A stretch of DNA of 64,000 nucleotides from Octopus vulgaris (taxonomy: Eukaryota), in the NCBI GenBank assembly GCA_951406725.2, contig OX597817.1, positions 161,386,001-161,450,000 of the forward strand. The letters are read 5' to 3'. Below, piece by piece: positions 9,215-57,811 of the stretch (the stretch's first letter is position 1; every line of letters starts with the position of its first letter). Position numbers and translations under genes: made by a program. The notes under the pieces are model-generated. The model worked only from the letters and a program-made list of their open reading frames with translations. It was not told the origin of the DNA and did not search any database.

Positions 9215-9887
9215 TTAATCTTGTAATGTTGATTGGTTCATTGATAAACCTTTCTCTGCATAGGGGTACTCCTCTACACTAATTTTTAAGGTTAGATTAA
9301 TTGGGGCAATGATGGTTCCAGTTGATCCAATCAACAAAATAACTGGCTCATGAAATTAACATGCAAGTGGCTGAGCACTCCACAGGCATGCATGCATGCA
9401 TGCATACCTTTAATGTAGTTCTCAGGGACATTCAGCATGACACAGAGTGTGACAAGGCTGGCCCTTTGAAATACAGGTACTACTCATTTTTGCCAGCTGA
9501 GTGAACTGGAGCAACATGAAAGAAAGTGTTTTGCTCAAGGACACAAATCATTGCCAAGAATTGAACTGATGACCTTACTATTGTAAACCGAATACCCTAA
9601 CCATTAAGCCATGTGCCTTCACTGAGGCAATATAGAATATAGTATATCCCCTTAGAGACACTTTGATGTGAGAAAAATCTCAGTTTACCTAAGACCTATC
9701 TTGTCTAGAGATACTTATTAAAGTGCAAACCTGCACGTGCATGCAATGCATGCAAACACATGTGCATAAACACACATGCATGATGGTGTCGTGTAGATAA
9801 ATACAAAGTGGGATAAGAAAAATGTGTCCCCTACTTGGCTAAAAATATCAGTCTGTCCAAAATGTATTTCCTTTGGAGATACTTTAA

Positions 9888-10109
9888 CCCTTTTGTTACC
9901 AATCCGGCTGAAACTGGCTCTAGCTCTGTAGTGCAAATGTCTTGTTTTCATAAGTTTTGAATTAAGATCTTCCACCAAACCTTAGTCACAATTTATGTTC
10001 CTAACATTAGCTGAATGATAACTAAGTGATTTTTACTAAATTCTTTGTTATATTTAAAGTAATTGAAAGAAACACAGAGCATCTCAAAATAAATACAGTA
10101 TTGAAAGGG
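9888..10109. mobile_element. piggyBac-like MITE (second subfamily, inverted relative to 51676 and 59499)
   Basis: TTAA|CCCTTTTGTTAC ... GAAAGGG; the interior is the reverse complement of the 51676 and 59499 copies. Confidence 0.75.
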
Positions 10110-10434
10110 TTTATGTGAGATAAATCCCTATCAATCAGAGGTAACAATAACCTTTCATGCATACTCCTTAGTGAATGTCAGGATGTAAAGAATTCGCGTG
10201 TGAGAAGTGCTAACCATCTCATTCAGCATATTAATGCCTTCATGCTCATTTTCATTTCCTTTACATGTAAAGCAAGAGTACATTGTCTGTTGTATCTCCT
10301 AACATTGTCTGTTCTGTACCTTGTTATGTCTCAGAATGAGCTGATTGGGCTTAGCTGTTTGGGTGCTGACAATTTGGCACGGCTGACTGGACGTTCAGCC
10401 TGGTTTGGTGAAGGTACTTTTTGGCACACTGAAG

Positions 10435-10465
<31 letters not shown>

Positions 10466-10509
10466 TGCAGCATCAAATATTTCAACACTCTTTTTTACTC
10501 TCTTTTACT

Positions 10510-10878
10510 CCTTTACTTGTTTCAGTCATTTGACTGTGGCCATGCTGCAGCATCGCCTTTAGTCAAGCAACTCGACCCCAGGACTTATTCTTTGTAAGCC
10601 TAGTACTTATTCTAGCGGTCTCTTTTGCCAAATCGCTAAGTTACAGGGATGTAAACACACCAACATCGGTTGTCAAGCAATGTTGGGGGAACAAACACAC
10701 ACACACACATATACATATATACGATGGGCTTCTTTCAGTTTCCATCTACCAAATCCACTCACAAGGCTTTGGTCGGCCCGAGGCTATAGTAGAAGGCACT
10801 TGCCCAAGATGCCATGCAGTGGGACTGAACCCGGAACCATGTGGCTGGTAAGCAAGCTACTTACCACACAGCCACTCC
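10510..10878 (-). mobile_element. tRNA-derived SINE, family C, full copy
   Basis: tRNA-like head on the minus strand and an internal (CA)n; near-identical to 29700-30058 and 49386-49767. Confidence 0.85.
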
Positions 10879-11326
10879 TGTGCCAATGTGAAACAAAAAT
10901 TAAAATGTTGAAAAAATAAATAACAAAAACAAAAGTGAATGGAAAAGCAAACAAAAATGAAGAGGGGTCATTTTATATCCCATCCCCTACCTATTATGGA
11001 CATGCCCAGATAATTAAATTCAGCTAATTATGGTCTATTTAATCAAAATTGGTGCTGCTTGTTATTAACTTGGGACACACATGTGCCTGTGCAGAAACAG
11101 AAGCATACAGATAGAAGGAGTGATAGAAAGATGAAGAGAGAAACATTACAATTTATGGATTGAACATGATTGACATAAACATTTTCCTTCTCCTCAGACA
11201 CATAAAGAGAAATATATTCACACACATATAGAAAATGTGTGTGTGTGTGTAAGAGGGAAGGAAGGGAACAAGAGAAACATTAAATGTCTTATGTCAAATA
11301 AGTCAGCATCGAATCAGTAATGTTTG

Positions 11327-11613
11327 TTCTTTCTCGAGCCATGCCTGGCTCATAGGGCCGGTTTCCTTGGCATATAGGTTCCCCACCTGGACGGGACGCT
11401 GGTCCGTCGCAGGTGAGCTGCAAGATGCAGGAGGAAAGAGTGAGAGAAAGTTGTGGCAAAAGAGTCAGCAGAAGTTTGCCATTACCTTCTGCCGGAGCCA
11501 CGTGGAGCTTAGGTTTTTTCGCTCATAAACACACACATCGCCCAGTCTGAGATTCGAGCCCACGAACCCTCGACCACGAGTCCACTGCTCTAACCACTAG
11601 GCCATATGCCTCC
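11327..11613 (-). mobile_element. tRNA-derived SINE, family A variant
   Basis: Minus-strand head GGAGGCATATGGCCTAGTGG; target duplication GAATCAGT(A/G)ATG at 11311 and 11617. Confidence 0.85.
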
Positions 11614-11698
11614 ACTGAATCAGTGATGCCGAATAGGCAGCGCCAAAACGTCCCATACCCATTACACCTTGTTGATATTTTTACCGTTTCTACTGTAG

Positions 11699-11864
11699 GG
11701 AGTACCGGAGTACAAGAAACCACGATCGAGACCGTCGAGTGTGATTGGTATCAATGAAACATCAAGTGCAGCCTCAGTTTCTCGAGAGGCTGTTTATCGA
11801 GATAAAGGAGAAATTGAGACCAGTCGGCCCCCGCCATTGCCACCACCTCTAAACAAACCGACAA
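11699..11864 (+). CDS. ASAP1: ASAP-type Arf-GAP coding exon (start of proline-rich region), phase 0 to 1
   Basis: Acceptor ctgtag|GGA and donor ACAA|gtaagc; CpG-rich coding-like composition. Translates GVPEYKKPRSRPSSVIGINETSSAASVSREAVYRDKGEIETSRPPPLPPPLNKPT, with an RPxS motif and a PPPLPP SH3-ligand-like motif. Confidence 0.88.
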
Positions 11865-12675
11865 GTAAGCCATGTTTTTACTTTCAATCTTCTTCGACCC
11901 CACTTTTTTTATGGCCCCCTTCGCACATGCTCCTCCTTTGCATTTCAAACATTTTCAAACAATTTTGCTATGTATGATTTATGGGTTGTTTTTTTTTTGT
12001 TTTTATTATTTGTTTCTGTTGTTGTTGCTGTTGCTGTTTTTGTGGTTCTTGCTGTTGTTGTTGTTGTTGTTTATGCTGCTGTTATTGTTGTGGTGATGTT
12101 GGTTGTTTTGTTGTCGTGCAGTGTTTCTTGTGGTGATGTCCACCTTGTTTCTGCCTGATGAAAATCTAGAATATTCTCTCTCTCAAAATAAATAAATAAA
12201 TAAATAAAAGACATCAAATATTTCAGTGTGAAACAAAAATAAAAATAATGTTAAAAAAAATAAATAACAAAAAAAGTGAAGAGAAAAAAGAAAAGGGGTT
12301 ATTTTATGGCCCATTCCCCACCTATTATGGACGTGTCAAGATAATTAAATTCAACTAATTATGGTCTATCTAATCAAAATTGGTGCTCCTTGTTATTAAC
12401 TTGGGACAATTCCTCTACACTTCAATTTGACCAAATATTCTTCTTCTAATTTGGCCAGCTCTTGTCCACTCACTCTGGACAGCTTCTGCTAATACTTCTC
12501 TAAATGTTGTCTTTCACACTCTCACACATCCAACACAACATTGTCACAGTCGAATAAAAATTTACAAACCCTACGCATACATGCACACACAGACGTGTGC
12601 ACATGCTCACCTATATATGCAATGCATACAAACACATATGCATAAACTCACATACAGAATGAATACAGAATGAAT

Positions 12676-12900
12676 GTAGAGGCGCAATGGCCTAGTGGTT
12701 AGGGCAGCGGACTCGCGGTCGCAGGATCGCGGTTTCGATTCTCAGACCGGGCGTTGTGTGTGTTTATTGAGCGAAAACACCTAAAAGCTCTACGAGGCTC
12801 CGGCAGGGGGTGGTGATCCCTGCTGTACTCTTTCACCACAATGGCGGTGCCCCAGCATGGCCACAGCTCAAGAGCTGAAACTGGAAAAACAAAAACAAAC
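12676..12900 (+). mobile_element. tRNA-derived SINE, family A head with a family C-type tail
   Basis: Head GAGGCGCAATGGCCTAGTGG...; ends GGCGGTGCCCCAGCATGGCCACAG...GAAAC plus an A-rich tail. Confidence 0.75.
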
Positions 12901-12991
12901 AAAAACAAATACACATAATACTGCTGTTATATGTAGATGTACTTGTGGGTCACAAGTACATCAACTGGAAATTATAGGATGAAATATATGC

Positions 12992-13028
<37 letters not shown>

Positions 13029-13029
13029 A

Positions 13030-13677
13030 TATAAACGGCAGTTTGTCTGTGCGTGTTTCTGTGTGTCTGTTTGCTTGTACCTCACCTGACCACGGCTTTC
13101 AACCGATTCTGATATATATGTCATATATATATATATCGATAAATATGGGGTCGATCAGAAACACGAACCACAAACTGTCTAGGGACACCCACCTATATAT
13201 TTTTTCCATTTTTTTGCTATTTTTTGGCTATAACTCTCTAAAAATGCTTTATAGTTATTTCCCTTACAAACCTGAGCAACGCCGGGTGATACTGCTAGTC
13301 TCTATATAAACGGCAGTTTGTCTGTGCGTGTTTCTGTGTGTCTGTTTGCTTGTACCCTCACCCTGACCACGGCTTTCAACCGATTCTGATGAAACTTGAC
13401 ACACACATAGCCCAATGTCATAATTCAAAACTAACGCAACGAAAATTTTGAAAAGTTCCCCCAGTTCTGAAAAAAATTGATAAATTCGACATGGGGTCGA
13501 GAATCAGAAACCCAAACCGCAAACTGTCTAGGGGACGCAACTCCACCTTTTTTAACTAAAAAAAAAATTTACCATCATTTTTTTCCATTTTGTTGCTATT
13601 TTTTGGCTATAACTCTCTAAAAATGCTTTATAGTTATTTCCCTTACAAACCTGAGCAACGCCGGGCGATACTGCTAG
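13030..13677 (+). mobile_element. Head-to-tail dimer of a non-autonomous Helitron (deleted copy 13030-13298, full copy 13299-13677)
   Basis: 5' TC(TC)TATATAAACGGC start, subterminal GC-rich hairpin CCTGAGCAACGCCGGG and 3' CTAG|T; the junction reads CTAG-TCTC. Confidence 0.8.
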
Positions 13678-13690
13678 TATATATATAAAA

Positions 13691-13893
13691 ACATAATTAT
13701 AATTAGGGTTCAGCTAATTGCTTCACCACATACCAAATTTAGAAATAGGCGTTAAAATTCCTTTTCTACTACTATAAGAATCTCCATGACGGTAACATGG
13801 TGATTCTTATAGTAGCAGAAAAGGAATTTTAACTCCTATTTCTAAATTTGGTATGTAGTAAAGCAATTAGCTGAACCCTAATTATAATTATGT
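13691..13893. repeat. Long inverted repeat: 98-bp arms, 7-nt loop, 5 mismatches
   Basis: 13691-13788 is the reverse complement of 13796-13893 (aligned by hand); the loop is ACGGTAA. Confidence 0.95.
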
Positions 13894-15122
13894 ATGTAAT
13901 TATGAAATATTTGTATAATTTTACCTATAAAGGTTATTTTAACGTACCAATCTACTTGGTGAAATTGTTAATTAATTGATTGATTAATTAATTAATTTAA
14001 TTGATAAATTTTAGCCTTTTATTATTAATTATATATATATACTATAATATACATATATTATTATAATATACATATATTATTATTATTATTATTATTATAA
14101 GCTACCAGTACAGTTAAGGGTACCTTAGGTTTCAAAATCCATATTTAAGGACAATTATTTAATGCCTACATTTCTCATTAGTCACAATTAAGATGGTGAT
14201 GTTAATTTGAGATCATCATCAGTTAGTGTCTGCTTTCCATGCTGGCATGGGTTGGATGGTTTGACAGGAGCTGGTTAGACAGGAGACTGCACCAGGCTTC
14301 AGTGTCTGTTTTGACATGGTTTTTACAGCTGGATGCCCTTCCTAACACCAACCATCCCACAGAGTGGAATCATGTGATTCAAAGGGACAGAATTGATCTG
14401 GGTACTGATGAAAGATCGATTAGAAACATAGTCATTAAATGACTGTCTAGAAAATATGGATTTCGAACCCTAAGGTACACCTGACTGTGCCATTTGATTG
14501 CACTAATAATAACATTCAGCTCTCAGACTACACAGAGCACTCTCCTTTCATTTTTGACTTTCAACAGAAACCTTCGATTCTACTACATATATATATATAT
14601 TCTAATATATATATATTAATTTGCACATCTGACTTGACTTAGATGTGTCATATTAAGAACATTGTAGACTGCATAATCCTGTTACAACAGGGCCATCCAC
14701 CAAGGCTGAGGAAATTTTGTTTACTGATATAATCTGTCCTCCTTCAGCACTTCACATCAATATGAATTGATTCCTGAGGGCAGTTATCACAGTCTACAGC
14801 ACTCTTAACAAAACACTGAATTTAATTTGGATCTGAAAATTGATATTTCTTACAAAGTTTATTTCCATTACTAAAAACTAATACATATCATATATATTCT
14901 TTGGAATAATTTTGAACATCATGTCATTATTTCCTTTACACCATGTCATTATTTCCATTCACAATATTTACAGAAAAAGAGGGGTTTTTTTATGAATATC
15001 AATATAATTACTTTTTTGTATGATATTCTAATACTCTAATTAATTAGTAATTACACTGTATGAGTATAGCTTAATTAGTTTTATCAATTTTGTTTATGTG
15101 ATCATATTCTGGAATCTTGTAG

Positions 15123-15167
15123 AATTTAAGCTGAGATCCTATCTATCCCGTAGCAAACTGAAGTCAG
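15123..15167 (+). CDS. Candidate 45-nt symmetric (phase 1-1) cassette exon of the ASAP gene
   Basis: Acceptor tcttgtag| and consensus donor CAG|gtaagt. Open in phase 1 as (K)FKLRSYLSRSKLKS(G); fits between the phase-1 ends of the 11699 and 31030 exons. No homology support. Confidence 0.5.
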
Positions 15168-15629
15168 GTAAGTGTGCAAGCAACTTGCATGAGGCTCAGT
15201 ACAGTCAAGCTGCTGCTGTTGCTGCTGCCGCTCTTGCTGCCAACATCCAACTGTTATTTCTTCCAATTCTCATGGAGCTACTCTCCTTCGTTCACCAACA
15301 CTAATAATTAACCTGGTTTCTTCTCTTGACAACAAAGCAGTATTTGAAATCAACTGACATTGGTATAACTGGAGTGTGTGTCACACACCCCCACCTGGGC
15401 CCCTAAACCTATATAGGTTTATACAGCAGACCTCCAAAGTGCCATCCTGTTAAAAGCGTTGCCTGGGGTGCCTTTCCTCCTACCTACTGTCAACAGATTT
15501 TATGTTGGACATAGCTTGCTGCTACAGCATTAATGCAGTCCCATTGAAGGGGTTACACATCCAGGGATTTTCTGTTACATTCTCTGGGGACAGTTTAAAA
15601 CCTAAAATGAAAAAAGTTTATTCTTAAAG

Positions 15630-17081
15630 ATTAGAGTCAACCTAGCTAAAACCAAAGTCCTAATAAGTAGGAAGGCAGGCAAACCACAAGTCCCTTCAGG
15701 TAGATGACCCTGCTCGATCTGTAGAAAAAGCGTAGGTAGAAACTCTATACGACGTACCCAGTGTAAGCTATGGACACATAAGAGGTGCAGCAATATCAAA
15801 TGAAGGCTACCTGGGAAGATAGTTTTTGTGTGTGCCAAATGCTCAGGAGCAATAAACACTGAAAATGTGCAGAGAACAACTTCCGCCACATTCCAGGGGG
15901 CAAAACTACAAGTAGTTGATAGCTTCCATTACCTAAGTGACCAAATCTGTAGCAGGGGTGGATGCTCTGAAAGTGTAGCTGCTAGAATAAGAATAGCCTG
16001 AGCAAAGTTCAGAGAGATCTTACCTCTGCTGGTTACAAAGGGCCTCTCACTCAGAGTAAAAGGTTGTTTGTATGACACATGTGTACAAACAACCATGCTA
16101 CATGGCAGTGAAACATGGGCCGTGACTGCTGAAGACATGTGTAAGCTCGCAAGGAATGAAGCCAGTATGCTCCGCTGAATGTGTAGTGTCAGTGTGCATA
16201 CTCGACAGAGTGTTAGTGCCTTGAGAGAAAAGTTGGACCTAAGAAGCATCAGATGTGTTGTGCAAGAGAGACGACTACACTGGTATGGCCATGTGGTGAG
16301 AATGGATGTGGATAGCTGTGTGAAAATATGCCACACCCTAGTGGTTGAGGGAACCTGTGGAGAAGGTAGATCCAGGAAGACCTGGGCTGAGGTGGTGAAG
16401 CATGACCTTCGAACATTGGGCCTCACTGAGGCAATGACTAGTGACCGGGACCTTTGGAAATATGCTGTGCTTGAGAAGACTTGGCAAGCCCAAGTGAGAC
16501 CATAACCTCGTGACCTATGCCAGGGGTGTAACCAACCCATTTATGCATATCTTCCCTTCATTGGACACTAAACACTGCTTGTGAAGACTTGTTAAGGTAA
16601 ATGAAATCGAAATCAAATTCGATGACTGGCATCCATGCTAGTGGAATGCTAACAGTACCATATGAGCATGATCGTTGCCAGAGCAACAAACTGGCCTCCG
16701 TGCCAGTGGTACGTAAAAAGCACCATTCGAGCATAATCGTTACTTGCATTGCCTTACTGGCACTTGTGCTGGTGGCATGTGAAAAAACATTTGAGCGAGG
16801 TCGTTGCCAGTGCCGCTGGACTGGCTCCTGTGCAGGTGGCACGTAAAAAGCACCATTTGGGCATGCCCATTGCCAGTACCACCAAACTGGCTCTTGTGCC
16901 AGTGGCACGTAAAAGCACCCACTACACTCTTGGATTGGTTGGCATTAGGAAGGGCATCCAGCTGTAGAAACTCTGCCAGATCAGAGTAGAGTCTGGTGCA
17001 GCCATTTGGCTTGGCAGTCCTCAGTCAAACCGTCCAACCCATGCCAGCATGGAAAGCGGACATTAAACGATGATGATGATG
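15630..17081 (+). mobile_element. 5'-truncated RTE-clade LINE (ORF2 C-terminal remnant to 16505, then 3' UTR and (GAT)n tail)
   Basis: One frame reads IRVNLAKTKVL...VDSFHYLS...MLHGSETW...RRLHWYGHVVRM...GRSRKTW with several in-frame stops; these are RTE RT-thumb and C-terminal motifs. Confidence 0.9.
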
Positions 17082-17145
17082 ATATATTTAACTTATTGCA
17101 TTTGTGATTGTCCCTACATACATTTTAAAGCCATAAGTGGTATAA

Positions 17146-17470
17146 GCATATGGCTCAGTGGTTAGAGTATCAGGTTCAAATTCATGAGGTAGTTTGATTC
17201 CCGGACCAGGCCATGAGTTGTATCCTTAAGCAAGACACTTTATTTTCACATTGCTCCAGTTCACTCAGCTGTAGAAATGAGCTGCAGCGTCACTCATGCC
17301 AGTTGTATCAGCCTTTTCCCTTTCCTTAGATAACATTGGTGGCATAGAGAGGAGAAACCGATATGCATGGGCGACTGCTGATCTTCCATAAACAACCATG
17401 CTTGGTTTTGTGCCTAGGAAGGGAACTTTTTAGGTGCAATCCTATGGTCATTCATTACCAAAGGGGATCT
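17146..17470 (+). mobile_element. Older tRNA-derived SINE
   Basis: Head GCATATGGCTCAGTGGTTAGAG...; an inverted relative lies at ~23470-23790. Confidence 0.6.
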
Positions 17471-18500
17471 TTACTAAGAGGTGTAGAAGAACAGTTTTAA
17501 TTAGGATTAATTTATAATAATTAAATCTTTGAAGTTGTTATTGTTATTTAGAAATGGCTCTCCTTTGATCAAGCAAAATTAAAATCTAGTAAAACAGACC
17601 TGTATAATATAAGCATTTTAGTGTGTGTGTGTTTATGAATACATACTCACATGAGTGTGTGCACGTGTGTGTATATGCACATAAGGAGAGGTTCTAACCA
17701 CAGTGAAATAAGAATCAGTGACCAACTGGAGTTATTGCCTGAAATGTGACTCAGTGCTAAATTTAATCACAATGATGTTGGTGCTGATGCTGGAGGCAGC
17801 AATAGCAATTTCTAACATTAGCAGAAATACCCCAAATGTGGAGAAAAGAGACAGTTCATTGGACAGATCCTATATTTTGTCCTTCTGTTTTTTAAGATAT
17901 GAGGGTGTAGTTTCAGTGGGATTTGGCTGCTATTTCAAGCAGGCCATGTTACCAAGTATAGGGCTCTCCTTATGCTCCTTATAGAATATAAGCCATTGGC
18001 AACTTCTCTCTACTGTTCCCAATTCTAGGCTATCTTTTCTGCTTCTCCCCAAGATGAATCCCTGCTTTTCTTCAGCTCTCACTCCCCGTAAGGGAAAGCC
18101 TTCCTCTCTCAGGTCATCGAAGTTTCTGTAACTTTACTTTTTCCTAGGTAGGGACGTTGGCCCTACACAAACCCTTTTTTTTTTTACCTCCAGGAAGAGG
18201 TCATCCACATTAGTTAGGTTTCTATCCTTTGACCTGCCACGCTTAATGAAGAATCCCAAAGGGTAGAGGTTGAGGTGGTATGGAGATACATCATCATCAT
18301 TTAACGTCTGCTTTTTGTTGTTTGCATGGGTCAGACAGAATTTGTTGAAGCAGACTTTTCTATGGCCAGATGCCCCTCCTGGGACCAACTTTCACCTGTT
18401 TCCAAACATGACCAAGCATGTTTTACATTGATGATGATGATGATGCTCAGTTACGACCATCACATGATGTCTAGACAAGGGCACACATAAACACAAATAG

Positions 18501-18544
<44 letters not shown>

Positions 18545-19211
18545 GCTTCTTTCAGTTTCAACCTACTAACTACACTCACAAGCCCTTGGTCGATTTCGGT
18601 CTAAAGTAGAAAACACGTACCCAAGGTGCTGTGCAGTGGGACTGAACCCAAAATCACATGGTTGGGAAGCATGCTTCTCACCCATACAAATCATTGTATG
18701 CTAAATTTCCTCTAGTTACCAAGCTGTCTGTAATAGGTATAAGCAGTTCATTACATGTGGTGGACCAGCAACTTATCCAGACAAAGATGTATTCTTTGTC
18801 ACACTATGTCTATTCTGGTCAACATGCTTCATTTTATCTAGCTTTAATGAGAGGAATTGGTCCCAAATCATATGGGAAAGTTACTTGCAATAGCTTGCTG
18901 TCCTATCCCAGAGGAGATTTACTTTTAATCATAGTGTACCTTTAGGAGAAAACTTTATTCTACAAGCTTCTGTTCATTTAATTATAATTGCAGAAAATAG
19001 GTACCAGATCATCTGGAAAAGTAACTTGTAACAGATTGGTTTCCTAGCTAAGCGATTTATTTGTAATTGTATTTAGTACCCCTTCAGTAGAATGCTTTAA
19101 TCTATATACTTCAGTTCATTTAATTATAAATCTGCAAAAATAGATACAAGTGATAAGGAATGTCACTGATAAAAACTGATGCTCTTGTCAAGAAATTTTT
19201 TCTCATCACAG

Positions 19212-19242
<31 letters not shown>

Positions 19243-20416
19243 AGCAGACAGATAAACTGATAGATTAACTTATAATGATATTAATAACACAATCAAAGGA
19301 ATCTCTTTTCTCCTACATAATAATTATCTGTTCCATATTTTAACAGAGATAATCACAGATTGACTTAACACAAGAAATCTTTATCTAGACCTGACCTACC
19401 TCAATTCCTTAAAAATACTTTTAACATTTTCTTCAACAGAATCTCTGCATATTTCAATCTGTTGAACTTGTGTCACTAGAAGCAACATTGAGAATTTTTC
19501 CCTTGTTTGCAAATAATACATAGTGAAGGTTAGACATTTCTAAATAGAAAAAATATTGAAACTAAGAAAATGCAAACGTGACAAAAACCAAACTGGATAT
19601 ACATGAGAGTTCGTTAAAATTCTTTTACTTAATAATTCACTTATTCACTTACTCATAGTATTTTAAATAAAATTGCTGGAATGCTGCATTGGGTAATATT
19701 TTGTGTTCACTCAAGCATGAGCAAATGTACATGGGCAGTCTTTTATGTTGTTGGTTAATGGTATTGCAGAGACAGTAGCTTAATTAACCTCTGCTGTACT
19801 TTGGCTGTTTCCAGAGTCATGCACCTTTCCCCAAGTATACTTGCCACATTTCCACTCATAGATACATCACAAAGGAAAGACAAGTCAATACATTTGTAGC
19901 AACCACAGCACCACAGGGTATGCCACATATTGATTATGTACAATATCTCTTTTAGTGTCCCTCCTTCTAAATTTTCTGCAGGAGACTCGCTTTTTTAAAT
20001 GCTCAATAAATTACCCTGCAAAACAGTAGAGATTTATTTTAGTAGGCATGGCTTGTGCAGAGCTAGTCCTACTCTCTTGTCCTTCAAACTTGTATTTGTT
20101 TGGTGCAACAAATGCCCTGAACCCAGTACATGTAGGATTGGTGTGGAGTTATCTTCTCTTAGATGAGACTGAGGTGTCTATGAACGACTTTCTTCTGGAG
20201 GCAATTCTGTAACATAATAACTAACCCATCACTGGGGCCCTGAAAGGGGCTACCAGTCCAAGTCAGAGCAGAGCTAGGAAAAACAGTGGTTAAGTGGTGT
20301 TTCCACATGACTCAAAACACTGGGACTCCTGAACCAGGCTCCCACTACTGAACATAGATTAAAATCATATCCAGGACACACGTGTGTGTGTGTGTATATA
20401 TATATATACATACATA

Positions 20417-20600
20417 CGAGGGGGTGCTGAAAAGTTCCTGGCTTTGGGTAAAAGAAAATACAGGAGGATCAATTAATTATGATTTTATTCAATATATTCC
20501 TCTCTGATTCACACACTTATTGCAGTGGTCCTTCAGTTTTTCTAAGCCTTGTAAAAGAATTTGGAAAGTTGAGCCTCCAACTAGGCCTTTCTGGAGCAGC
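20417..20600. mobile_element. Mariner-like terminal fragment
   Basis: TA|CGAGGGGGTGCTGAAAAGTTCC terminus typical of mariner TIRs; the other end was not identified. Confidence 0.55.
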
Positions 20601-21551
20601 AAACACTATATTCAACATCATCTCAGTTTCTTTGGTTGTTGATAATAGTTACCGAATCATCTGAAAATGTTTTCTGTGACACTTTGTTGTCTTATGAATT
20701 GATGAATTGGGAGATCTATCTCTCATCATTTTATGCCATGACCTCAGAGCTAAACACAAGCTCTTAAAAGTGCCCTTGGGATTTGGAGACATTTCATATC
20801 TATATGCTACTTTTTAATTAAACAAGAATGATTTCTTCACATCTTCTTCCATTATCTTGACATCTTTTTGAGAATAACTATTTCAACTTTCATTCTCCTC
20901 CTCTCTCTCTTTCTATATATATATATATATACACATGTGTGTATATATATATGATTATATACACACATGTATATATATATATATATGATTATATACACAC
21001 ACATGTATGTATATATATATATGCATATATACACTCACGTGTAAGTATATATACACACATGCATATATCATTCTGTCTAATACTTAGTAAATCTTATTCT
21101 AAATTTAACTCTAACATATCAAGTTTATTTTATAATAAAATGATATGGTATCTTGTAATACTGAATTCTATCTTATCTTTTATGATGTATCTTTATCTCA
21201 GCAACTTATCTTTATATGAGGTCTCATTCTTGTATGATATCTTAACCTATAACTTTATCTCTCTCCCATTCCAGCCCATTCATATTACTAAACTTCTCAT
21301 TTATTCAACTTTCTTTTATTGCTAATCTCTTCAAAAGCAGCAAATTCTTTAAAACTTTCTTTAAAGTTTTTTTTATTTTTGTTTCTTCTTTACATCCAAT
21401 TTATTGACATTTTTCTGCTAAAATATTCATTGATACTATACAGGACATGCTAAACTCCTTTTGAAGTGGGTCATTTCTTGGATTCAAATGGTCACTGAAC
21501 ACCACAGGACATCATTATTGTCATCATCATCATTATCATCACTGTCATTGC

Positions 21552-21590
<39 letters not shown>

Positions 21591-22228
21591 TCTGTGTTCT
21601 TTTTTCTACGCTGGCATGGATTGGGCAGTTTGACAAGAACAGACAAGCAAGAGGGCTCTGCCAGGTTCTATGTTTCATTTGGCAAAGTTTCTACTGCTGG
21701 ATGCCCTTCCTAATGCCATTTTACAGTGTGTGCTGGGTGCTTTATATGTGGCACCAGCACTGGTGAGGTTGCCAAGTTCCCACAAGATAAGACCCCTCAA
21801 CTGAGTGGGGTATAGACTGGGTAAAGAAACTGTTACAGAAGGAGAGGAGTAGGTGTCTTCAATATATATATATAAGCTTCTTTCAGTTTCTGTCTACCAA
21901 ATGTATTGACAAGGTTTTGGTCAGCCCAGGCTATAGAAGAAGGCACTTGCCCAAGGTGCTGTGGAGTGGGACTGAACCTGTATTTTATTACAGAATTTTT
22001 TTTAAATATGATATATATATTGACAAACCATATGTGTAAAAATGATACAAGTACACCCCAATATTGAAATAGAGGACTAAATTGAATATACAATACAAGG
22101 ATGGAACACTTGCATATAACAGATGCACATGACAACTGATGAAACAGTAGCTCGAAATTGGCTAAAATCTTATCTGCTGTTGCTGGGAAACTCCAAGTAC
22201 TGGATATGAGTGTTACATGCTTGCATTG

Positions 22229-22261
<33 letters not shown>

Positions 22262-22588
22262 TTAGCATTTTCTTCATTTCCTTTATATATATATATATAT
22301 ATATACATGTGAAGACATATGGCCTCGTGGTTCAGGTGTTGCACTCATAATCGTAAGGCTGTGGTTTTGATTCTTGAGCTGGCCAATGCATTGTGTTCTT
22401 GGGCAAAATGCTCCATTTCACTTTGCTCCAGGCAACTCAGCTGTAAATGAGTTCTAACAATAGTTGGGAAGTTAACCCTACAATGGACTGACATCTCATT
22501 CAGGAAGGAGTGCTCTAATTTCAGTCATTTATCACTTATACACCATGGAGATTGGTTTAAGCTGCACCCTTGTGAGTCCTAAGGCTCA

Positions 22589-22589
<1 letters not shown>

Positions 22590-22637
<48 letters not shown>

Positions 22638-22721
22638 CATATGTATACATACATACATACATACATGCATATATATACATACATACATATATATATACAT
22701 ATATATACATACATACATACA

Positions 22722-22797
<76 letters not shown>

Positions 22798-22811
22798 TAC
22801 ATACATACATA
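22590..22811. repeat. Compound (TA)n/(TACA)n/(CA)n microsatellite
   Basis: Directly visible; it explains the YIYI/MYVC pseudo-ORFs. Confidence 0.95.
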
Positions 22812-24416
22812 TTTTGATATTTTAAATTTGAGATAAAGCAAAAAGAAACTATTTATACTTCCACAGGATCCTACTTACAGTTAAAAGAAGACTTGGAAAT
22901 ATGAATTAACACACATTATTGCCAGAAATGTAATACAACTTAATCCAAAATTCCAAGATTTTAGTGATGTTGCAATGATAACAACAACAACAATAATAAT
23001 CCTGTTTGCCATAGGCACCATGTTTGAAATTATACACACACCAGACAGGGTTTCCCTTTCTTAGCTAAATGCATTTCCCTTCCAGGGCCACATGCAATCC
23101 ATTTTCTGGACCATTCATATTGTACTTCTTTGTATTGCTCATACATTGTTCACTTTCGGGTCAAAGACAAGCCTCCTCTTTCTCTGACCACCCACTCAAA
23201 GGATCAAAGGTTCTTCTCAATTCATTGACTCACAGGGCCGGTTGCCCAGATTTGGTAGCATATGTATTATCTATCCATGGACAGGATATGATGCATCACA
23301 GGATTATTCATTTTTGCCAACTGAGTGGTATGGAGCAACATCAAGTGAAGCGTTTTGCTCAAGAACACACTGCATCATTCAGTCCTGGAAATGAAACCTC
23401 CATCTTACAACCATGAGTGCAACACCCTAACAACTAAGCCACACACTTCCACTGACCACCCACTGAAGACCCTCTTTGGTCGTGAATTACCATGGGATTG
23501 CTCCTAAAAGGTTCCCCTCCAAGGCACAAGTCTGGGCAAGGTCGTTTATGGATGACCAGTAGTCACCCATGCATATCAGCCTCTCCTCTCCATACCACTA
23601 ATGTTATTCAAAGGGAAAACAAAGGCCAATACAAAGGCACCAATGACATTGCAACTCATTTCTACAGCTGAGTGAACTGGAGCAGCATGAAATAAAGTGT
23701 CTTGCTCAAGAACACCACACACAGCCTGATCCAGGAATTGAACCCACTACCTCATGATTGTGAGTCCAATGCTCTAACCACGGAGTCACCCACTACACAT
23801 ATATAAATGCATGCTAAGTAAAAATGCATAAATACACACATGCATATGCAAGTACACACACCACTTACACTCTTTCATGTTACTTTTACTGATTTCAGCC
23901 ACAGGCTGTGGTCATGGTGGGGCACTACCTTTAGTGTGATTGCATTTTATTTCACACTCCTTTCCTGGCCCACTCTTCAGAACTCTTTCTGGTGAAGGAG
24001 AGAGCATTGGAAAGAGCTGATCGTCTTTGTGTTTCTTGTCATGAAGTTAGTTCTTCTGGCACTTCTGATGAAAGTTTGCCCAAATATTCTTTAAACACAT
24101 CCGCATCTACACCTCACAGATCTCTGAGGTTGTTGGACAGAGATGTTGAAGAGTTGTGGGCCTTTGAAACCTAAGCTGTCAACAATACTGTTACAGCTCT
24201 CACGCATATATAAACTCAAACACTTACATTTAGATATATTGCACTCACACACACACACACACACACATATTAAAATTATTACTTAGGGTATCTACGAGAT
24301 ACCACCATGCTGAAAATAGCAGCCAAGATCTGACTCTAAAACCACATTAAATGCTCATACAGCACAAGGAGAGAAGACAAAAAGACAAAATATAACTAGT
24401 AAAAAATTACTGGATA

Positions 24417-24475
24417 ATTCCAGATCCCAGATTTCTGGCTTTGCATTTAGAAATGCTTTGCCTCATCAGTGGAAT
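24417..24475 (-). ncRNA. Type I hammerhead ribozyme motif (copy 1)
   Basis: Minus strand reads AUUCCA-CUGAUGA-GGC aaa GCAUU ucua AAUGC aaa GCC-a-GAAA-UCUGGGA-UC^UGGAAU. It has a 6-bp helix I, the CUGAUGA/GAAA core and an AUC cleavage triplet, with one extra A before GAAA. Confidence 0.75.
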
Positions 24476-24911
24476 ATACGCAGAAAGTAACATAAATGCA
24501 CATATATATACATACAACATACAAATACTTACATATACGAATGTATACATATATATATATATGCATGTATGCAACACGACCAGTTTAAATTGCCCGCTTC
24601 ATAACTCCATTGTGTGATATGGTTTAAACCTCACCACAGTAAATACAGTGATGAAATAAATTTAAATTTATATGAATAAGGATAAGATCGCAAATTTAAA
24701 TTAAATAATGATCTTATCAAGTGACCAGCATGGAAATAGAGACCTTCAAAGGTAATAATTATTATTAAAATTATAATTTAGGGTATCTACGAGATACCGC
24801 CATGCTGAAAATAGCAGCCAGGATCTGACTCTAAAACCACATTAAATGCTCATACAGCACAAAGAGAGAAGACAAAAAGACAAAATAAAACTAGTAAAAA
24901 ATTACTGGATA

Positions 24912-24970
24912 ATTCCAGATCCTGGATTTCTGACTTTGCATTTAGAAATGCTTTGCCTCATCAGTGGAAT
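24912..24970 (-). ncRNA. Type I hammerhead ribozyme motif (copy 2)
   Basis: Minus strand reads AUUCCA-CUGAUGA-GGC aaa GCAUU ucua AAUGC aaa GUC-a-GAAA-UCCAGGA-UC^UGGAAU. Helix III is near-palindromic (AUCC-A-GGAU). Confidence 0.75.
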
Positions 24971-25085
24971 ACACGCAGAAAGTAACATAAATGCACATAT
25001 ATATATATACAACATACGAATACTTACATATACAAATGTATACATACATATATATATACACGTAGGCAACACGACCAATTTAAAT

Positions 25086-25116
<31 letters not shown>

Positions 25117-27501
25117 TTTGACTACATCAATGCAGCACATTCTGTGTAACACTAAGTTCAAGATGTATCAATAATATCAGTCGGCACCAATTTAAAATCA
25201 AGCATAAATATAGATCTGTATTGTTTGAAAATCTGCATACATTTGCATGTATGACTTGTTTAAGGTCTTAATGTTCTGTGTAAGCATGTAGCTATTTAAT
25301 TGTTGATTCCATCCTGACACCCCTGAACATTTACCTTGCCCTCACCCACCCCGAAAATACACTGCAGGTGCATTGCTTATAAGCTGCAGATATATTTAAC
25401 TGATTTTTCAGGCCCACAATGTTTTATAAGGTTTATTGGTGCAGTGCAATGTGCAAGTGTCAATTATGTATGTGCAATCTTTGCAGGTGTTACCAATGCT
25501 GTGCTGCATACAGGTATATATATATATATATACACACAGATATATATATATATATATACACACATGCATCAGACGTTAAACGTTGATGATGATGATATAT
25601 ATACCTACAGACATACACATGTGTGTGTGTCTGTATATACACACACACACACACACATATATATATGTATATAGACACACACATTATATATATATATATA
25701 TGTGTGTATATACACATACACATGTATATATGCACATACACACAAAGAAATATATATATACATTATATATATATATCAAGAGACCAAAGTGTTCATACGC
25801 TGCTATATGTTTTATATATATATATGTATATACACGCACGCATGTATATATGCACATACATACATATATATATCATCATATATATCATCAAATTCGCCAT
25901 TGTCTGCTATAAATGTGTATCTATGTAACTTTACAAGTACATAGCTTAGTATTTTTGTTTTACAGGAACACAAAGTTTCACATTTGTATTTATGCAATTC
26001 TAATATGTACACCACATACGTTACTGTAGATTTCAGGTGCATTCTTGTAGTTATTGTAGTCCTCGTGCATTACTAAATGTCATTAGAAATGATTTTCTGC
26101 AAATATTCACACATTCTGTGTTATTTCTTTGTGCATCATCACATTATTTACAGGTGCATTTCTGCATTATTTACCTGGACAATATGACTAATGTAATAAT
26201 GCAGTTTTAGTAGTGAGCACAGAATTTTTTAGAAATTTTCTTTATTTTTTTTCATTTTTGTATATATATATTTTTATTTATCATTATCATTATTAAAAAT
26301 TTTTTTTTTTTGGTTTTTCTAAGTAATCCTTATTTTTCAGTTTTTCTTTTTCTGTTTCTCTTCCCCATCACCACCCCACCCCTCTCCCATTCCTCTCTTG
26401 CTGCTTCTTTATAAGTGATATAGAAACCCTGTTAAATGCAGAGACTGTTATTTCGAGAAAGTGAAAGTAAATGCAGAGAGGTGAAGCTGCAAATACACAG
26501 GGAATGGGAGGGGGAGGAGAATATAAATAGAAAAGAGGAAGGCAGTTGACAGAGAGGGCAGGAAGAGGCAAGTTAACAAAGAGAGTGGCAAGAGGCAGGC
26601 ACACAGAGAGGACAGGAAGCACATATCATGGTATTGTGGAATGTTATTACAGAATAGGATCCTCCCACCAGGGCCTTTATGCAAAGTTGGACCTTTCATA
26701 AGCTCATTTTGTCCCTGGTGCTAGGATGACATTAGGATATTGAACCTTTCAGATGAGGGGGAAAAGTATTGAGATGCCTTCTGTACTCAAGAAAACCTGT
26801 ACTCCATAACAGAAGTGTTAAGGCTACTTCCCCTGGTAAAGAGGACTGGCCTATAAGAGTCTTGTGCCAGTACCACATAAAAAACACTTGTACTGGAGCC
26901 ATGTAAAAGTGCTATACAATACTACATAAAAAAACCCAACTTTGGTTGGCATTAGGAAGGGCATCCAGCCTTAGAGATCAAGCCAAATCAGACTGGAACC
27001 TGGTGTAGCTCTCCAGCTTGCCAGGTTTGGTCAAACTGTCCAACCCATGCCAGCATGGACAATGGATGTTAAATGATGATGATGATGCACTACTGGAATT
27101 GGGATGCATCTAGTATGCTCCTGTGTCTTTTATGCCAGCAAATATTGTACATTTTCTTTTATTGTTTAGTATTTAAATCAGCCAAACCTGACTCAAATAT
27201 TTTACCTGTTTTTTGTTAGAACTGGTTAGGTTTAGCCTCTCACACCTGCCCTACATTATCATTCTAAAAATAAGCAATCACATCATTGAAATTGTGGAAC
27301 TAAAGAGATAAAGCATGATTAATTCAAAATAATGTGACTAAATAAGCATTATATTTGACAGAGTAACCTCTATGCCAAAGGGTTAATATATAACTGGTAT
27401 TACTAAATCAACCAGTCATATCTATCCAATAGAAACAGACTCACCTAGCTTCCATAGCAAAATTCAGGGACAAACTAGATTGCTACACCTGTATACATTT
27501 C

Positions 27502-27728
27502 TTTACTACCCGCAAGGGGCTAAACACAGAGGGGACAAACAAGGACAGACAAAGGGATTAAGTCGATTACATCGACCCCAGTGCGTTAATGGTACATAAT
27601 TTATCAATCCCGGAAGGATGAAAGGCAAAGTCGACTTCGGCGGAATTTGAACTCAGAACGTAACGGCAGATGAAATACAGCTACGCATTTTGCCTGGTGT
27701 GCTAACGTTTCTGCCAGCTCGCCACCTT
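27502..27728 (-). mobile_element. SINE family B
   Basis: Reverse complement of the 8088 copy. Confidence 0.8.
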
Positions 27729-28159
27729 AAGATTGTTACATCTGTATAGAGATCAGGGAGATGATGCTGATGTACTGAATGACATGCACATTCTCTATGA
27801 ATTGAAGTTTACCTGTTATTTAGCTATATAGTGATTCCACTGTAACTGAGACAGGTCACTTAGCACAGGTGTGTTACCTTTTACTTGTCTTAGTCATTGG
27901 ACTGCTGCCATGCTGGGGCATTGCCTTGAAGAGGTTTTATGCAAACAAACTGACCCCTATTGTCAATCAGTGGAGTGAACACACACACTCACATATATAT
28001 ATGCAATAAACTTTCTCATTATTTCTATCTACCAAATTCACTCACAAAGTGTAAACAGACAACATTTGCCCAAGTACCACACAGTGGGATTGAACCTAAA
28101 ACCATGTGGTTACAACGCTAACTTTTTAACCACATAGCCATGCCTGCACCTGTAAATGT

Positions 28160-28505
28160 CAGATAACCAGATGTTATAAACATGTTACTTAAACCATGTT
28201 ACAGACATGCCTCTTAATTCCTGCATTACAAACTCCATTACCTAACTCAACACACATGTTACTGACATGTTTCATGTTTTAGAGACATGTCACTCAAATC
28301 CTGTGTGACAGAGCATGTCATTCAACCTCTCTGTTACAGGCACGTCACTAAAACTCTTATGTTACAAACCAGTCTCTTAACTGCTGTCGTAATAAAGACC
28401 TGCCACTTGACTCTTGTGTTACAGATGTGCCACACAACTTATGTATATCACATGCCTCATATGGGTTACAGATATGTTACTCAAATGCTGCGTTACAAAT
28501 GAGTT
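28160..28505. repeat. Degenerate ~27-bp minisatellite (TGTTACAGACATGTCACT)
   Basis: Recurrent TGTTACA(G/A)A(C/T)ATG units. Confidence 0.55.
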
Positions 28506-29699
28506 ACTCATCAATGAATATCTTAAAATACTCATCACAACTTCAGGTCTTACTTGCTTCATATACCTCTTCTTTCACTCACTTCTTTTACCATCCCTTT
28601 CTCCCTCTCTCTCTCCCTCCCTCTTTCTCTCTCTCCTATCTCTCCCTCCCTCCCTCCCTCTCACTCTCTTATCCACTACAAGCTCTTTTCTCATATCTTT
28701 TATCATATCCTCTCAAAAACCACCTTATCATTTCAAATATTTTTCTTCTCTTTCTTTGCGTGCTTCATCATGCATGAGTACACACGATCCTATAACATTT
28801 GAATGTTACCTGGACAAATTCCTCCTAGAAATAGCAGATAAACCACCAAAACCTGTATACATCTTGGCAAACACCTCCTTATTTGAGTGGGCAGTGATGT
28901 CCTAACACCTGCCTTAAAAGACTGTTCCGGGTGGTGCTATTAAGTTAAACGTATTCCATGAGGAAATATTATTTTGTTTGGGACCAAATGAGGGTTAGCA
29001 ACGGGAAGGGCATCCAGGTGTAGAAAATCTGTTTCAACAAATTGCATCTGATCCATGTAAACATAGAAAAGTGGATGCTAAAATGGTGATGATGATATAT
29101 ATATATGTGTGTGTGTGTGTGTGTAGATAGATAGATAGATAGATAGATATGTTTCTTTATTAGCCACACAGGGCTGAACACATATGGGACAAATTACAAA
29201 GAGCTTTTTTTGGCGGGGAGAAAAAAAAAAGTGGGGTAGGTTTTCGATCGAAAGGGATCGTAAAAAAGAAAGAAAAAATTTTAAAAATAAAAAAGATAGA
29301 TAGATCTTTTATTTCTCTCATTATACTGTGGCCATGCTGGGGCACTGTCTTGAAGGGTTTTAATTAGACAAATCAACCCCAGTACTTACTTTTTAGGTCT
29401 GGTACTGATTCCATCAGTTTCTATGCCAAACTGCTAAGTTACAGGGATATAAAAAAAAACCCAATGCTGGTTGTCAAGCAATGGTGAGGGAAAAACACAA
29501 AGACACACATACACACAAACGGTTCCACACAGTTTGTGTCCACCAAATTTGCTCACAAAGCATTGGTTGGTCCAGGCTATAGTAGAGGACACTCACCCAA
29601 GGTGCCACTCAATGGGGCTGGACTTGAAACCATTTGGTTGCAAAGCAAGCTTCTTAACCACACAGCTATGCTTGTATACACATACACACTATAATATTT

Positions 29700-30058
29700 A
29701 TCAGTGTTTCAGTCATTTGACTGTGGCCATGCTAGAGCACTGCCTTTAGTCAAGCAAATCGACCCCAGGACTTATTCTTTGGAAGCCTAGTACTTATTCT
29801 ATCGTTCTCTTTTGCCGAACCGCTAAGTTACGGGGATGTAAACACACCAGCATCGGTTGTCAAGCGATGTTGGAGAGACAAACACAGACACACAAACACA
29901 CACATATATACATATATCTGACGGGCTTCTTTCAGTCTCCGTCTACCAAATCCACTCACAAGGCTTTGGTCGACCCGAGGCTATAGTAAAAGACACTTGT
30001 CCAAGTGGGACTGAACCATGTGGTTCATAAGCAAGCTACTTACCACACAGCCACTCCT
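29700..30058 (-). mobile_element. tRNA-derived SINE, family C (older copy immediately upstream at ~29320-29670)
   Basis: Near-identical to 10510-10878. Confidence 0.85.
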
Positions 30059-31029
30059 ATGCCTAACATGAAAAAAAAAATACACAGAGAACTCAGTAGT
30101 GTTGTAGAATAGACAGTGTTTATTACACAATATAATGTCAACTCTTCATCTATTATTGCATAGGTTTCAGCTGTATGGATAATTCAAATGGTCTGTTTTG
30201 TATATGTAACCAATTTTTAAAAAAGGAACATACATGTAAGTGCTTATATATTAGTGTATACATTTAAGTAATAGAATTACTCCAGACCACTCACTAGTTA
30301 CCAGACAAAACTACCTATATTAGCAGTGATCTGTCAATGAAAAGGCACCAAAGACAAAATTGTTAATGACATTTCAATATGTTGTTTATTCGTAAAAGTT
30401 TAGGTTGTTTACAACTTGGAATTTAATGAATTAAGCTCAGTCAGCTCAGTTACTAACAAAAACAAGTTTCGTCACTTACTGCCATCATCGATCCCTGATA
30501 AAATCCTGTTTTGGTGTTTACAATTATTTTACACCTGAACACGGGTAGTACTCTGTACAGCTTGGTAAAGTGAAAATAATACATATTTAAAGTTGTGTCT
30601 TCACGGATTGCTTTTCTGCATCTCACATTGCAACTGCCATCAAGTAATAAAATTGCCTGATGATTGCAGCAGTGCAAAATTAAGGTATATATGCAAATAT
30701 TCAGGTGAATCTGTGTGTATGTGTGTGTGTGTGTGTTTCCCCATGTATTTTTCTCTTCCCTTTCTTTCATTATACAATCTTTCTTTTCTCTTCCTCCTCC
30801 TCCTCTTTTTATTTCATTGTTCCTTCTCTGTCCCTACCCGTCTCCCTTTCTTTCTCCCTCCCTCCTTCACTCTCCATCTCCCCCCTCCCTCCCTGCCTTA
30901 TCCCTTTTTCTCTCTCTCTCTCTCTCTCTCTCGCTTCCCTCTATCTATCTCCTCAATTTGCTCTCTCAAAGCAAGTTTCTTTGTATTGACATGTTGTTTA
31001 TTTTGCCTCATCAGCATTATTTGCATCAG

Positions 31030-31323
31030 GTTTGAATCACTATAGCATCAGTGGAGCGGCACCTTCACAGACCAACGGAACCTTGCTGCACACCACTTCC
31101 TACAACTATAATCACAGCGGTGCAGGCGGACCAAGTCTGCCTCCACTGCCGCCCAAAAAGAAGCCACCAGCCCCTGTTCCACCGCCAACATCTGGCCATA
31201 CAAGGAACTGGTCCGAGCCCAATGCCTCTTTCTTGGGTCACTATCGTACGCCTTCAGACCCGCCACCTCCACGGTTCAAACCACCCAGTCCTGAGAATCG
31301 CAATACCATGCATGTTCCTGTAG
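31030..31323 (+). CDS. ASAP1: ASAP-type Arf-GAP coding exon (proline-rich region), phase 1 to 1
   Basis: Acceptor catcag|GT after a very long pyrimidine tract and donor TAG|gtaagg; 294 nt. Translates LNHYSISG...PSLPPLPPKKKPPAPVPPPTSGHTRNWSEP...GHYRTPSDPPPPRFKPPSPENRNTMHVPV; the HxRTxSDPP motif is ASAP-like (ORF 31032..31376). Confidence 0.9.

Positions 31324-57766: not shown

Positions 57767-57811
<45 letters not shown>

What the first reader, a model, noticed from the sequence alone, without database searches (positions are those of the whole stretch)
24268..25086. Tandem hammerhead-ribozyme element (retrozyme/Penelope-like) predicted to release a 495-nt RNA
Seen: two 324-bp direct repeats with an exact 495-nt offset and a 171-bp spacer, no ORF, sitting in a CA/TA microsatellite. 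On the minus strand each repeat folds as a type I hammerhead: helix I AUUCCA/UGGAAU, core CUGAUGA...GAAA, helix II GGC/G(C/U)C extended by GCAUU/AAUGC, and an AUC cleavage triplet (cuts at 24918/24917 and 24423/24422). Helix III is a near-palindrome with a 1-nt loop (AUCC-A-GGAU; AUCU-G-GGAU in the other copy). Established: Penelope-like elements and non-LTR retrozymes carry such minimal hammerheads in tandem repeats, where palindromic helix III is stabilised by dimerisation and cleavage yields monomeric, often circular, RNA. Inference: this is a non-autonomous cephalopod retrozyme-like element whose transcript would self-process to a 495-nt monomer. Being antisense, it spares the host ASAP pre-mRNA. 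Caveat: both copies have a non-consensus extra A before GAAA, which may mark a family-specific core variant or inactivity.
Basis: partly seen in the sequence, partly recalled or inferred. Interest (0 to 1): 0.9.

Follow-up and report, generated by a model that had tools for sequence, protein, structure and literature searches.

The report
Penelope-type repeat with extra-A hammerhead
This is one decayed copy of an abundant non-coding jumping-gene family whose hammerhead (self-cutting RNA) fold has been kept intact across subfamilies despite an extra adenine in the catalytic core, so it is likely a working but unusual ribozyme, though cutting is untested.

Summary
Observation confirmed: 324-bp repeats 495 bp apart, each with a type I hammerhead motif on the minus strand, in an intron of an ankyrin/proline-rich (ASAP-like) gene. 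It is 1.65 units of a non-coding 495-nt element with at least 752 hammerhead-bearing copies genome-wide. The family shows Penelope-like anatomy: 5' truncation, inverted 5' pieces (47 of 122 loci), two preferred 3' ends (145 of 166) and microsatellite targets. The extra A between C11.1 and G12 is family-wide, not decay: 98 of the first 100 core-free matches have A and none lacks the nucleotide. Subfamilies keep the fold (one helix I pair reads C-G, U-A or A-U; 0 of 12 core positions carry shared variants against 64 of 134 flank columns). Two older families in this genome match the same layout; 0 of 95 metagenome matches do. One uncommented 'AGAAA' precedent sits in a 2014 supplement. No autonomous partner was found, cleavage and circles are untested, the active fold is not the predicted minimum-energy fold, and both local copies carry weakened helix III. 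Verdict: new variant of a known kind (non-autonomous Penelope-like element / non-LTR retrozyme); release of a 495-nt RNA from this locus is unlikely today.

The parts
24268..25086 (-). Whole insertion: partial tandem of a 495-nt non-coding unit (unit positions 327-495, 1-495, 1-155, counted from the predicted cut)
   Evidence: family search
24912..24970 (-). Upstream hammerhead motif (copy A): helix I 24970-24965/24917-24912, CUGAUGA 24964-24958, extra A 24931, GAAA 24930-24927, C17 24918; predicted cut 24918/24917
   Evidence: covariation
24417..24475 (-). Downstream hammerhead motif (copy B): CUGAUGA 24469-24463, extra A 24436, GAAA 24435-24432, C17 24423; predicted cut 24423/24422
24423..24917 (-). 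Predicted 495-nt monomer between the two cut sites (31% GC, no ORF; predicted circle fold z = -5.4 against 40 shuffles)
   Evidence: release is inferred
24268..24303 (-). 3' end of this copy at unit +155, just behind a 7-bp hairpin (+120..+136); one of two preferred family 3' ends
24656..24718 (-). Second hairpin (+200..+237) and second preferred family 3' end (+262 = 24656), internal in this copy
24805..25027 (-). Possible spliceosomal intron enclosing hammerhead A (GTAAGT at 25027, YAG ending 24805; same at 24532/24310 for copy B); untested
   Evidence: both sites recur across subfamilies; the AG also lies in a predicted helix, so its conservation is ambiguous
24244..24267 (.). (CA)n microsatellite at the 3' junction
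25086..25116 (.). (TA)n microsatellite at the 5' junction
3251..31323 (+). Host gene context: ankyrin exon 3251-3431 and proline-rich candidate exons 11699-11864 and about 31015-31323 bracket the element (intronic, antisense)
   Evidence: (only 1dcq PAP-beta and 2b0o UPLC1 among the 60 listed cover the whole exon). Exon boundaries are predicted

Best explanation
This is a decayed copy of a non-coding, non-autonomous Penelope-type retroelement family whose type I hammerhead fold, including an extra A between C11.1 and G12, has been conserved across subfamilies and likely cleaves slowly as a dimer or with protein help. Inferred cycle: a source locus with two hammerheads is transcribed; the palindromic helix III of two motifs would pair with each other and cut out a unit-length RNA; a Penelope-like RT/GIY-YIG protein supplied in trans would nick AT-rich microsatellites and start reverse transcription at one of two sites behind hairpins (+152 or +262), giving truncated, partly tandem and inverted copies. 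The extra A is likely accommodated next to the A9-G12 pair as a bulge or a mismatch with the optional 5' extra nucleotide. Shown: sequence, family, anatomy, covariation. Inferred: cleavage, dimer, partner protein, transcription. This particular intronic antisense copy is probably passive.
For: Family: 3758 first-look candidates, 40 scored at 84-92%; 752 and 727 exact pattern matches against 0 and 0 controls. Anatomy over 122 distinct loci: 47 with an inverted 5' piece, 8 with two same-strand hammerheads, 145 of 166 free 3' ends at two sites, 134 of 166 abutting microsatellite; these match features described for PLEs (PMC8557442 passages; two RT start sites and AT-rich cleavage, PMC11167929). 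Fold: helix I pair 2 is C-G 65, U-A 25, A-U 7, U-G 3, other 9 of 109 rows; 0 of 500 shuffles reach the covariation score; pair types follow subfamilies on a tree built from downstream sequence only; helix IIb A-U/U-A swap in 5 of 112; N7 free; shared variants at 0 of 12 core positions against 64 of 134 flank columns (Fisher p = 7e-4; 0 of 12 against 39 of 134, p = 0.02, at the stricter threshold). 10 of the first 100 matches lack the loop-III base, most giving a perfect palindrome (self-duplex -10.9 against -9.9 kcal/mol). Extra base: 98 A, 1 G, 1 T, none missing in the first 100 of 752 (counted by eye); 167 with, 0 without. Engineered hammerheads with a plain linker between A9 and G12 keep some activity (PMC544870 passages).
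Against: No cleavage data. The hammerhead fold is not the minimum-energy fold: helix III probability <=0.03 locally, helix I 0.3 (copy A) and 0.07 (copy B) locally and <=0.01 in the whole 819-nt RNA, monomer or crossed. The best A/B helix III duplex is -6.4 against -9.9 kcal/mol for the commonest sequence. Rfam finds no hammerhead. Compensatory changes are only about 2-4 independent events, and part of the sample was chosen with patterns that overlap the core, which inflates. No autonomous partner: three GIY-YIG families examined share no meaningful DNA with the unit. Base rates are poor: PLE hammerheads cleave weakly in vitro (PMC4209133), the anole PLE hammerhead needs protein and is dispensable for insertion in vitro, and 1 of 9 genomic Xenopus dimers cleaved (bioRxiv 10.64898/2026.07.22.740005).
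Confidence: 0.66

Rival explanations
1. The extra A silences catalysis; the fold is kept as a protein-binding or RNA-folding element for the Penelope machinery, not as a ribozyme.
For: Insertion lies beside the general base G12; hammerhead cleavage is dispensable for insertion in vitro and Naiads thrive without one; in copy A the extra A allows CUGAU to pair with GUCAG (probability about 0.27), hiding the core.
Against: Catalytic positions and a cleavable NUH (UC in 102 of 112) show no shared variants, which a purely structural element would not obviously need; the alternative pairing is absent in copy B and in the roughly half of copies with C at that site.
Confidence: 0.2
2. A classical non-LTR retrozyme: constitutively expressed, efficiently self-cleaving, accumulating as an abundant 495-nt circle, with this locus as a source.
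For: Two motifs flank one full unit; no ORF; 31% GC; the monomer folds better than shuffles (z = -5.4 circular, -4.7 without the microsatellite part).
Against: No locus with three or more same-strand hammerheads in the block maps; copies are about 5% decayed (median end branch 0.047); the motif is non-canonical, whereas described retrozymes carry canonical type I motifs (PMC7229834).
Confidence: 0.1
3. Truncated pseudo-LTR ends of an autonomous (now extinct) PLE, or a local duplication that mimics a hammerhead by chance.
For: Most loci hold a single hammerhead plus a short tail, as truncated PLEs do.
Against: Wherever copies extend 5', they run into the previous unit, not into an ORF; the tandem register recurs at unrelated loci; covariation and controls exclude chance.
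Confidence: 0.04

Closest known systems
Hammerheads in the pseudo-LTRs of Penelope-like elements (Cervera and de la Pena 2014, PMC4209133)
   Same: Type I topology, palindromic helix III suited to dimers, enlarged helix II, optional extra nucleotide between A9 and G10.1 (39 of the first 100 family matches), dispersed mostly single copies.
   Different: An extra A on the 3' side (C11.1-G12) in essentially all copies; the window's subfamily lacks the 5' extra nucleotide. In that paper's Fig. S3 only 1 of 56 rows reads AGAAA (by row count the Cotesia congregata bracovirus PLE; assignment inferred from text order); the main-text parts I read neither discuss nor test it.
Non-LTR retrozymes of animals (Cervera and de la Pena 2020, PMC7229834; Li, Clavereau and Pollet 2026, bioRxiv 10.64898/2026.07.22.740005)
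   Same: Non-coding, low-GC unit of a few hundred bases with one type I hammerhead per unit; proposed non-autonomous PLE derivatives.
   Different: Partial tandems, inversions and two 3' ends instead of multimeric arrays; non-canonical core; circles not shown; no pLTR relative found.
Poseidon element of the green anole (Frangieh et al. 2024, PMC11167929)
   Same: Two preferred 3' ends downstream of the hammerhead, AT-rich targets.
   Different: That element is autonomous and its tail is 30-40 bp; here the two ends are about 110 nt apart and there is no ORF.
Natural hammerhead core variants (Perreault et al. 2011, PMC3088659)
   Same: Single-nucleotide core insertions that keep some activity (A6a, U13a).
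   Different: Section 8 and the passages read name no insertion between 11.1 and 12; Figure 5 itself could not be seen.

Membership tests
Type I hammerhead ribozyme | CUGANGA box after helix I | tested here: met
   Both copies; 85 of the first 100 core-free matches intact, the rest scattered single changes (counted by eye)
Type I hammerhead ribozyme | GAAA directly after the helix II closing pair G10.1-C11.1 | tested here: not met
   An extra base, nearly always A, intervenes
Type I hammerhead ribozyme | Helices I, II, III and NUH triplet, supported by covariation | tested here: met
   helix III shows no two-sided change and is weak as a monomer
Type I hammerhead ribozyme | Match to an Rfam hammerhead model | tested here: not met
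   No hammerhead family among 85 matches at E<=10
Type I hammerhead ribozyme | Site-specific self-cleavage | not testable with these tools
   Needs an in vitro assay; only contigs, no raw RNA reads, were available
Type I hammerhead ribozyme | Loop 1-loop 2 tertiary contact | not tested
   A purine-rich 3x3 internal loop in helix II is conserved but no contact was modelled
Penelope-like element (insertion anatomy) | 5' truncation, partial tandems, inverted 5' copy | tested here: met
   47 of 122 loci inverted, 8 of 122 with two same-strand hammerheads
Penelope-like element (insertion anatomy) | Optional 3' tail (two RT start sites) and AT/microsatellite targets | tested here: met
   81 ends at +144..165 and 64 at +240..268 of 166; 134 of 166 abut microsatellite; spacing longer than the 30-40 bp in print
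Penelope-like element (autonomous) | RT plus GIY-YIG ORF | tested here: not met
   None in the unit or attached in 40 loci of 8-10 kb
Non-autonomous PLE derivative | Sequence kinship with the pLTR of an autonomous PLE | tested here: inconclusive
   No kinship with the three families sampled; other families in the genome were not sampled
Non-LTR retrozyme | Non-coding low-GC tandem repeat with a type I hammerhead in each unit | tested here: inconclusive
   Non-coding, 31% GC, two motifs here, but only 1.65 units and no multimers seen
Non-LTR retrozyme | Expression as monomeric circular RNA | not testable with these tools
   Contigs cannot show circles, strand or ends

The most novel reading that the evidence does not exclude
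Cephalopod non-autonomous Penelope-type elements use an active hammerhead subclass in which an invariant A between C11.1 and G12 is part of the working core (or a built-in brake released by dimerisation or the partner protein), shared by at least three families with unrelated flanks, invisible to standard descriptors and Rfam, and sitting inside a retained intron so that splicing decides whether the RNA can cut.
Probability: 0.3. Interest if true: 0.75.

Novelty: new variant of a known kind. Interest (0 to 1): 0.5.

Why it matters
A natural insertion next to the general base G12, kept through subfamily turnover while paired positions co-vary, is a ready-made test of how much the hammerhead core tolerates and of the open question of what hammerheads do for Penelope-like elements. 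If active, descriptor and Rfam searches that demand GAAA straight after helix II miss whole families. The element class itself is known, and nothing suggests a role for the host gene.

Tried and rejected
Rfam scan: only microsatellite-driven miRNA matches. Partner search: a GIY-YIG family seeded from L036 (20 loci), a young 1312-aa family and the 30 best Pfam PF01541 loci, mostly a 781-aa family, share no meaningful DNA with the unit; PLE protein matches near family loci are separate insertions. Expression: no RNA holder listed; the two runs guessed to be RNA hold family contigs and, in X1, a 331-nt piece of this locus with no other letters, but the intron flank is covered at similar depth (4-5), contigs show no strand, ends or circles, and no joint matching the proposed intron was among the 15 of 38 joints shown: no verdict. 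A decayed GIY-YIG reading in the unit was considered and rejected (best E = 1.1). MAFFT put the subfamilies with the 5' extra base out of register in helix II, so helix II was counted by anchored parsing and only helices I and III with the pair tool; one row with an internal deletion (L097:1337-1414) was left out of A1, and 15 of 112 rows lacking downstream sequence were left out of the tree and. For one search, 8 of 130 loci were dropped (7 duplicates, 1 chance hit). No target-site duplication can be read in the microsatellites. Lunse et al. 2017 (small PLE hammerheads cleaving as dimers) is not held, and the supplements of PMC7229834 and of the 2026 preprint could not be read; any of them may already list this variant. 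Earlier-finding searches by sequence and in this genome returned nothing.

Full report
Observation. The two repeats are as described: 24268-24591 and 24763-25086, 324 bp, offset 495, 18 mismatches, between (CA)n and (TA)n tracts. On the minus strand each holds AUUCCA-CUGAUGA-GGC...G(U/C)C-A-GAAA-palindrome-UC-UGGAAU, with C17 at 24918 and 24423, so cuts at both would give 495 nt. Rfam reports no hammerhead among 85 matches at E<=10. An ankyrin exon (3251-3431; Pfam Ank_2 E = 1.2e-10; whole-exon PDB matches 1dcq and 2b0o) and proline-rich candidate exons at 11.7 and 31.0 kb lie on the plus strand, so the element is intronic and antisense to an ASAP-like gene. The genome is 2.8 Gb with about 30 large contigs, which fits an octopus (recalled, not tested).

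The family. The 495-nt unit gave 3758 first-look candidates, 40 scored, at 84-92%. Exact patterns give 473 matches for a 32-letter tail motif and 752 and 727 for patterns flanking the two halves of the core, with 0 for the reversed controls; allowing for about 5% decay, low thousands of copies is my inference. Family contigs also occur in DNA-like runs labelled as two other organisms. The window's insertion reads unit 327-495, 1-495, 1-155, so the 'spacer' is part of the unit. Over 122 distinct loci (130 held, 8 dropped), 47 have an inverted 5' piece, 8 have two same-strand hammerheads (5 of the 30 chosen for similarity to the window, 3 of the other 92), 145 of 166 free 3' ends fall at +144..165 or +240..268, and 134 of 166 abut microsatellite. 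Each end lies shortly behind a predicted hairpin. These are the PLE features described in PMC8557442 (passages) and PMC11167929 (parts 1-2 of 4). No ORF belongs to the unit.

Selection on the fold. In 109 distinct rows the second pair of helix I is C-G 65, U-A 25, A-U 7, U-G 3, other 9; 0 of 500 shuffles reach the covariation score and slid controls pair 15-54% against 95%. Related rows inflate such counts; a tree from downstream sequence alone (97 of 112 rows, many forks unresolved) shows the pair types tracking subfamilies, which amounts to a few independent events. Other shared changes are compatible: N7 is U, C, A or G; G10.2 pairs with C or U; helix IIb swaps A-U for U-A in 5 rows; loops vary. 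Shared minor alleles occur at 0 of 12 core positions against 64 of 134 flank columns (p = 7e-4; p = 0.02 at a stricter threshold), with one broken pair type (C-A, 5 rows) at the lower threshold; part of this sample was chosen with core-overlapping patterns. The two core-free patterns avoid that bias: G12 is kept in 100 of the first 100 listed and CUGANGA in 85 of 100 with scattered single changes (counted by eye). Ten of 100 lack the loop-III base, most becoming a perfect 8-nt palindrome that can only pair between two motifs, which favours dimer function.

The extra A. With it 167 exact matches, without it 0; where the position was left free, 98 A and 2 G of the first 100 of 742 and 98 A, 1 G, 1 T of the first 100 of 752; none lacked the base. 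Sister subfamilies also carry the usual PLE extra base between A9 and G10.1 (452 matches against 3 controls; 39 of the first 100), so the 3' A is kept with or without the 5' base. A pattern for shorter helix II with the same A gave 184 matches against 20 controls; among 30 loci fetched, 11 share one set of flanks and 4 another, with palindromic helix III and decayed helix I (only 5 of 30 pass a strict pairing filter, and the A was fixed by the pattern).

Against activity. The hammerhead fold costs 7.6 and 8.7 kcal/mol over the local minimum; helix III probability is <=0.03; in the whole 819-nt RNA neither monomer nor crossed helix I exceeds 0.01; the A/B helix III duplex is -6.4 against -9.9 kcal/mol for the commonest sequence. 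Both local copies differ from the commonest helix III (58 of 112). Published base rates are low. No partner was found among three autonomous families, two of which show their own different hammerhead-like motifs. A GTAAGT donor upstream and a YAG downstream recur across subfamilies (AG in 72 of 79 parsed rows) and would enclose the hammerhead in an intron, recalling the pLTR intron of Penelope, but the AG also sits in a predicted helix and splicing is untested.

Mechanism. I commit to a non-autonomous PLE passenger with a slow, dimer- or protein-assisted hammerhead (0.66 overall; about 0.9 for the element type, 0.65 for cleavage by intact members, 0.15 for a 495-nt RNA from this locus today). 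Shown: sequence, family, anatomy, covariation. Inferred: transcription, dimer, cleavage, circularisation, partner.

Literature. Read: PMC4209133 main text parts 1-2 of 4 and supplement file 2 parts 1-2 of 3 (file 1 not searchable); the 2026 preprint parts 1-3 of 5; PMC7229834 passages and results part 1 of 3; PMC3088659 passages and section 8; passages of PMC8557442, PMC6765202, PMC10085705, PMC6962438 (235 Rfam hammerhead loci in giant squid) and PMC544870. One of 56 rows in Fig. S3 of PMC4209133 reads AGAAA, by row count the Cotesia bracovirus PLE, so the insertion has a precedent. Searches for octopus hammerheads and for this insertion (listings only) showed no description of this family or a test of the insertion; Lunse et al. 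2017 and two supplements could not be read and may bear on this.

Verdict. A real, well-supported family of a known kind with an unusual and testable core variant: new variant of a known kind, interest 0.5.

Noticed in passing
window 650-700 (+): A different minimal PLE-type hammerhead remnant (extra base after A9, GAAA directly after helix II, no helix III); related to the repeat seen at L220-L222.
   Followed up: partly
L163-L168 (e.g. L164:2263-6198, +) and L152-L162: A young autonomous PLE family (98-100% protein identity among the 150 scored, open frames up to 1312 aa) whose 3' repeat has a hammerhead-like motif with C instead of A at position 9.
   Followed up: partly
L175, L177, L180, L191 and others of L169-L198: A PLE family with 781-aa open frames whose 3' region has a U3-A8 type hammerhead-like motif behind short tandem repeats rich in ATTGG and TGACGT words.
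   Followed up: partly
L101-L120: An abundant older GIY-YIG PLE family (18511 first-look candidates) with no CUGANGA hammerhead in the 3' region printed (part of the output was cut).
   Followed up: partly
L031:2684-5827 (+): A LINE with endonuclease, RT and PHD-like domains (1048-aa open frame) inserted into the microsatellite part of a family copy.
   Followed up: no
L199, L202, L205, L206, L211, L212, L214-L217, L227; L207, L213, L223, L226: Two older repeat families with a short helix II and the same extra A before GAAA, 65-86% alike within family, no PLE ORF attached within 1.5 kb.
   Followed up: partly
window 57729-58611: An 880-bp (TAGA)n array, about 220 copies.
   Followed up: no
window 15804-16502 and 60913-61155 (+): Decayed reading frames that look like 3' ends of RTE-type LINEs (judged by eye, no informative Pfam match).
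   Followed up: no
L229-L314 (metagenome contigs): Many canonical PLE-type hammerheads with an ACAUGU palindrome, several in inverted pairs, probably animal DNA within the samples.
   Followed up: no
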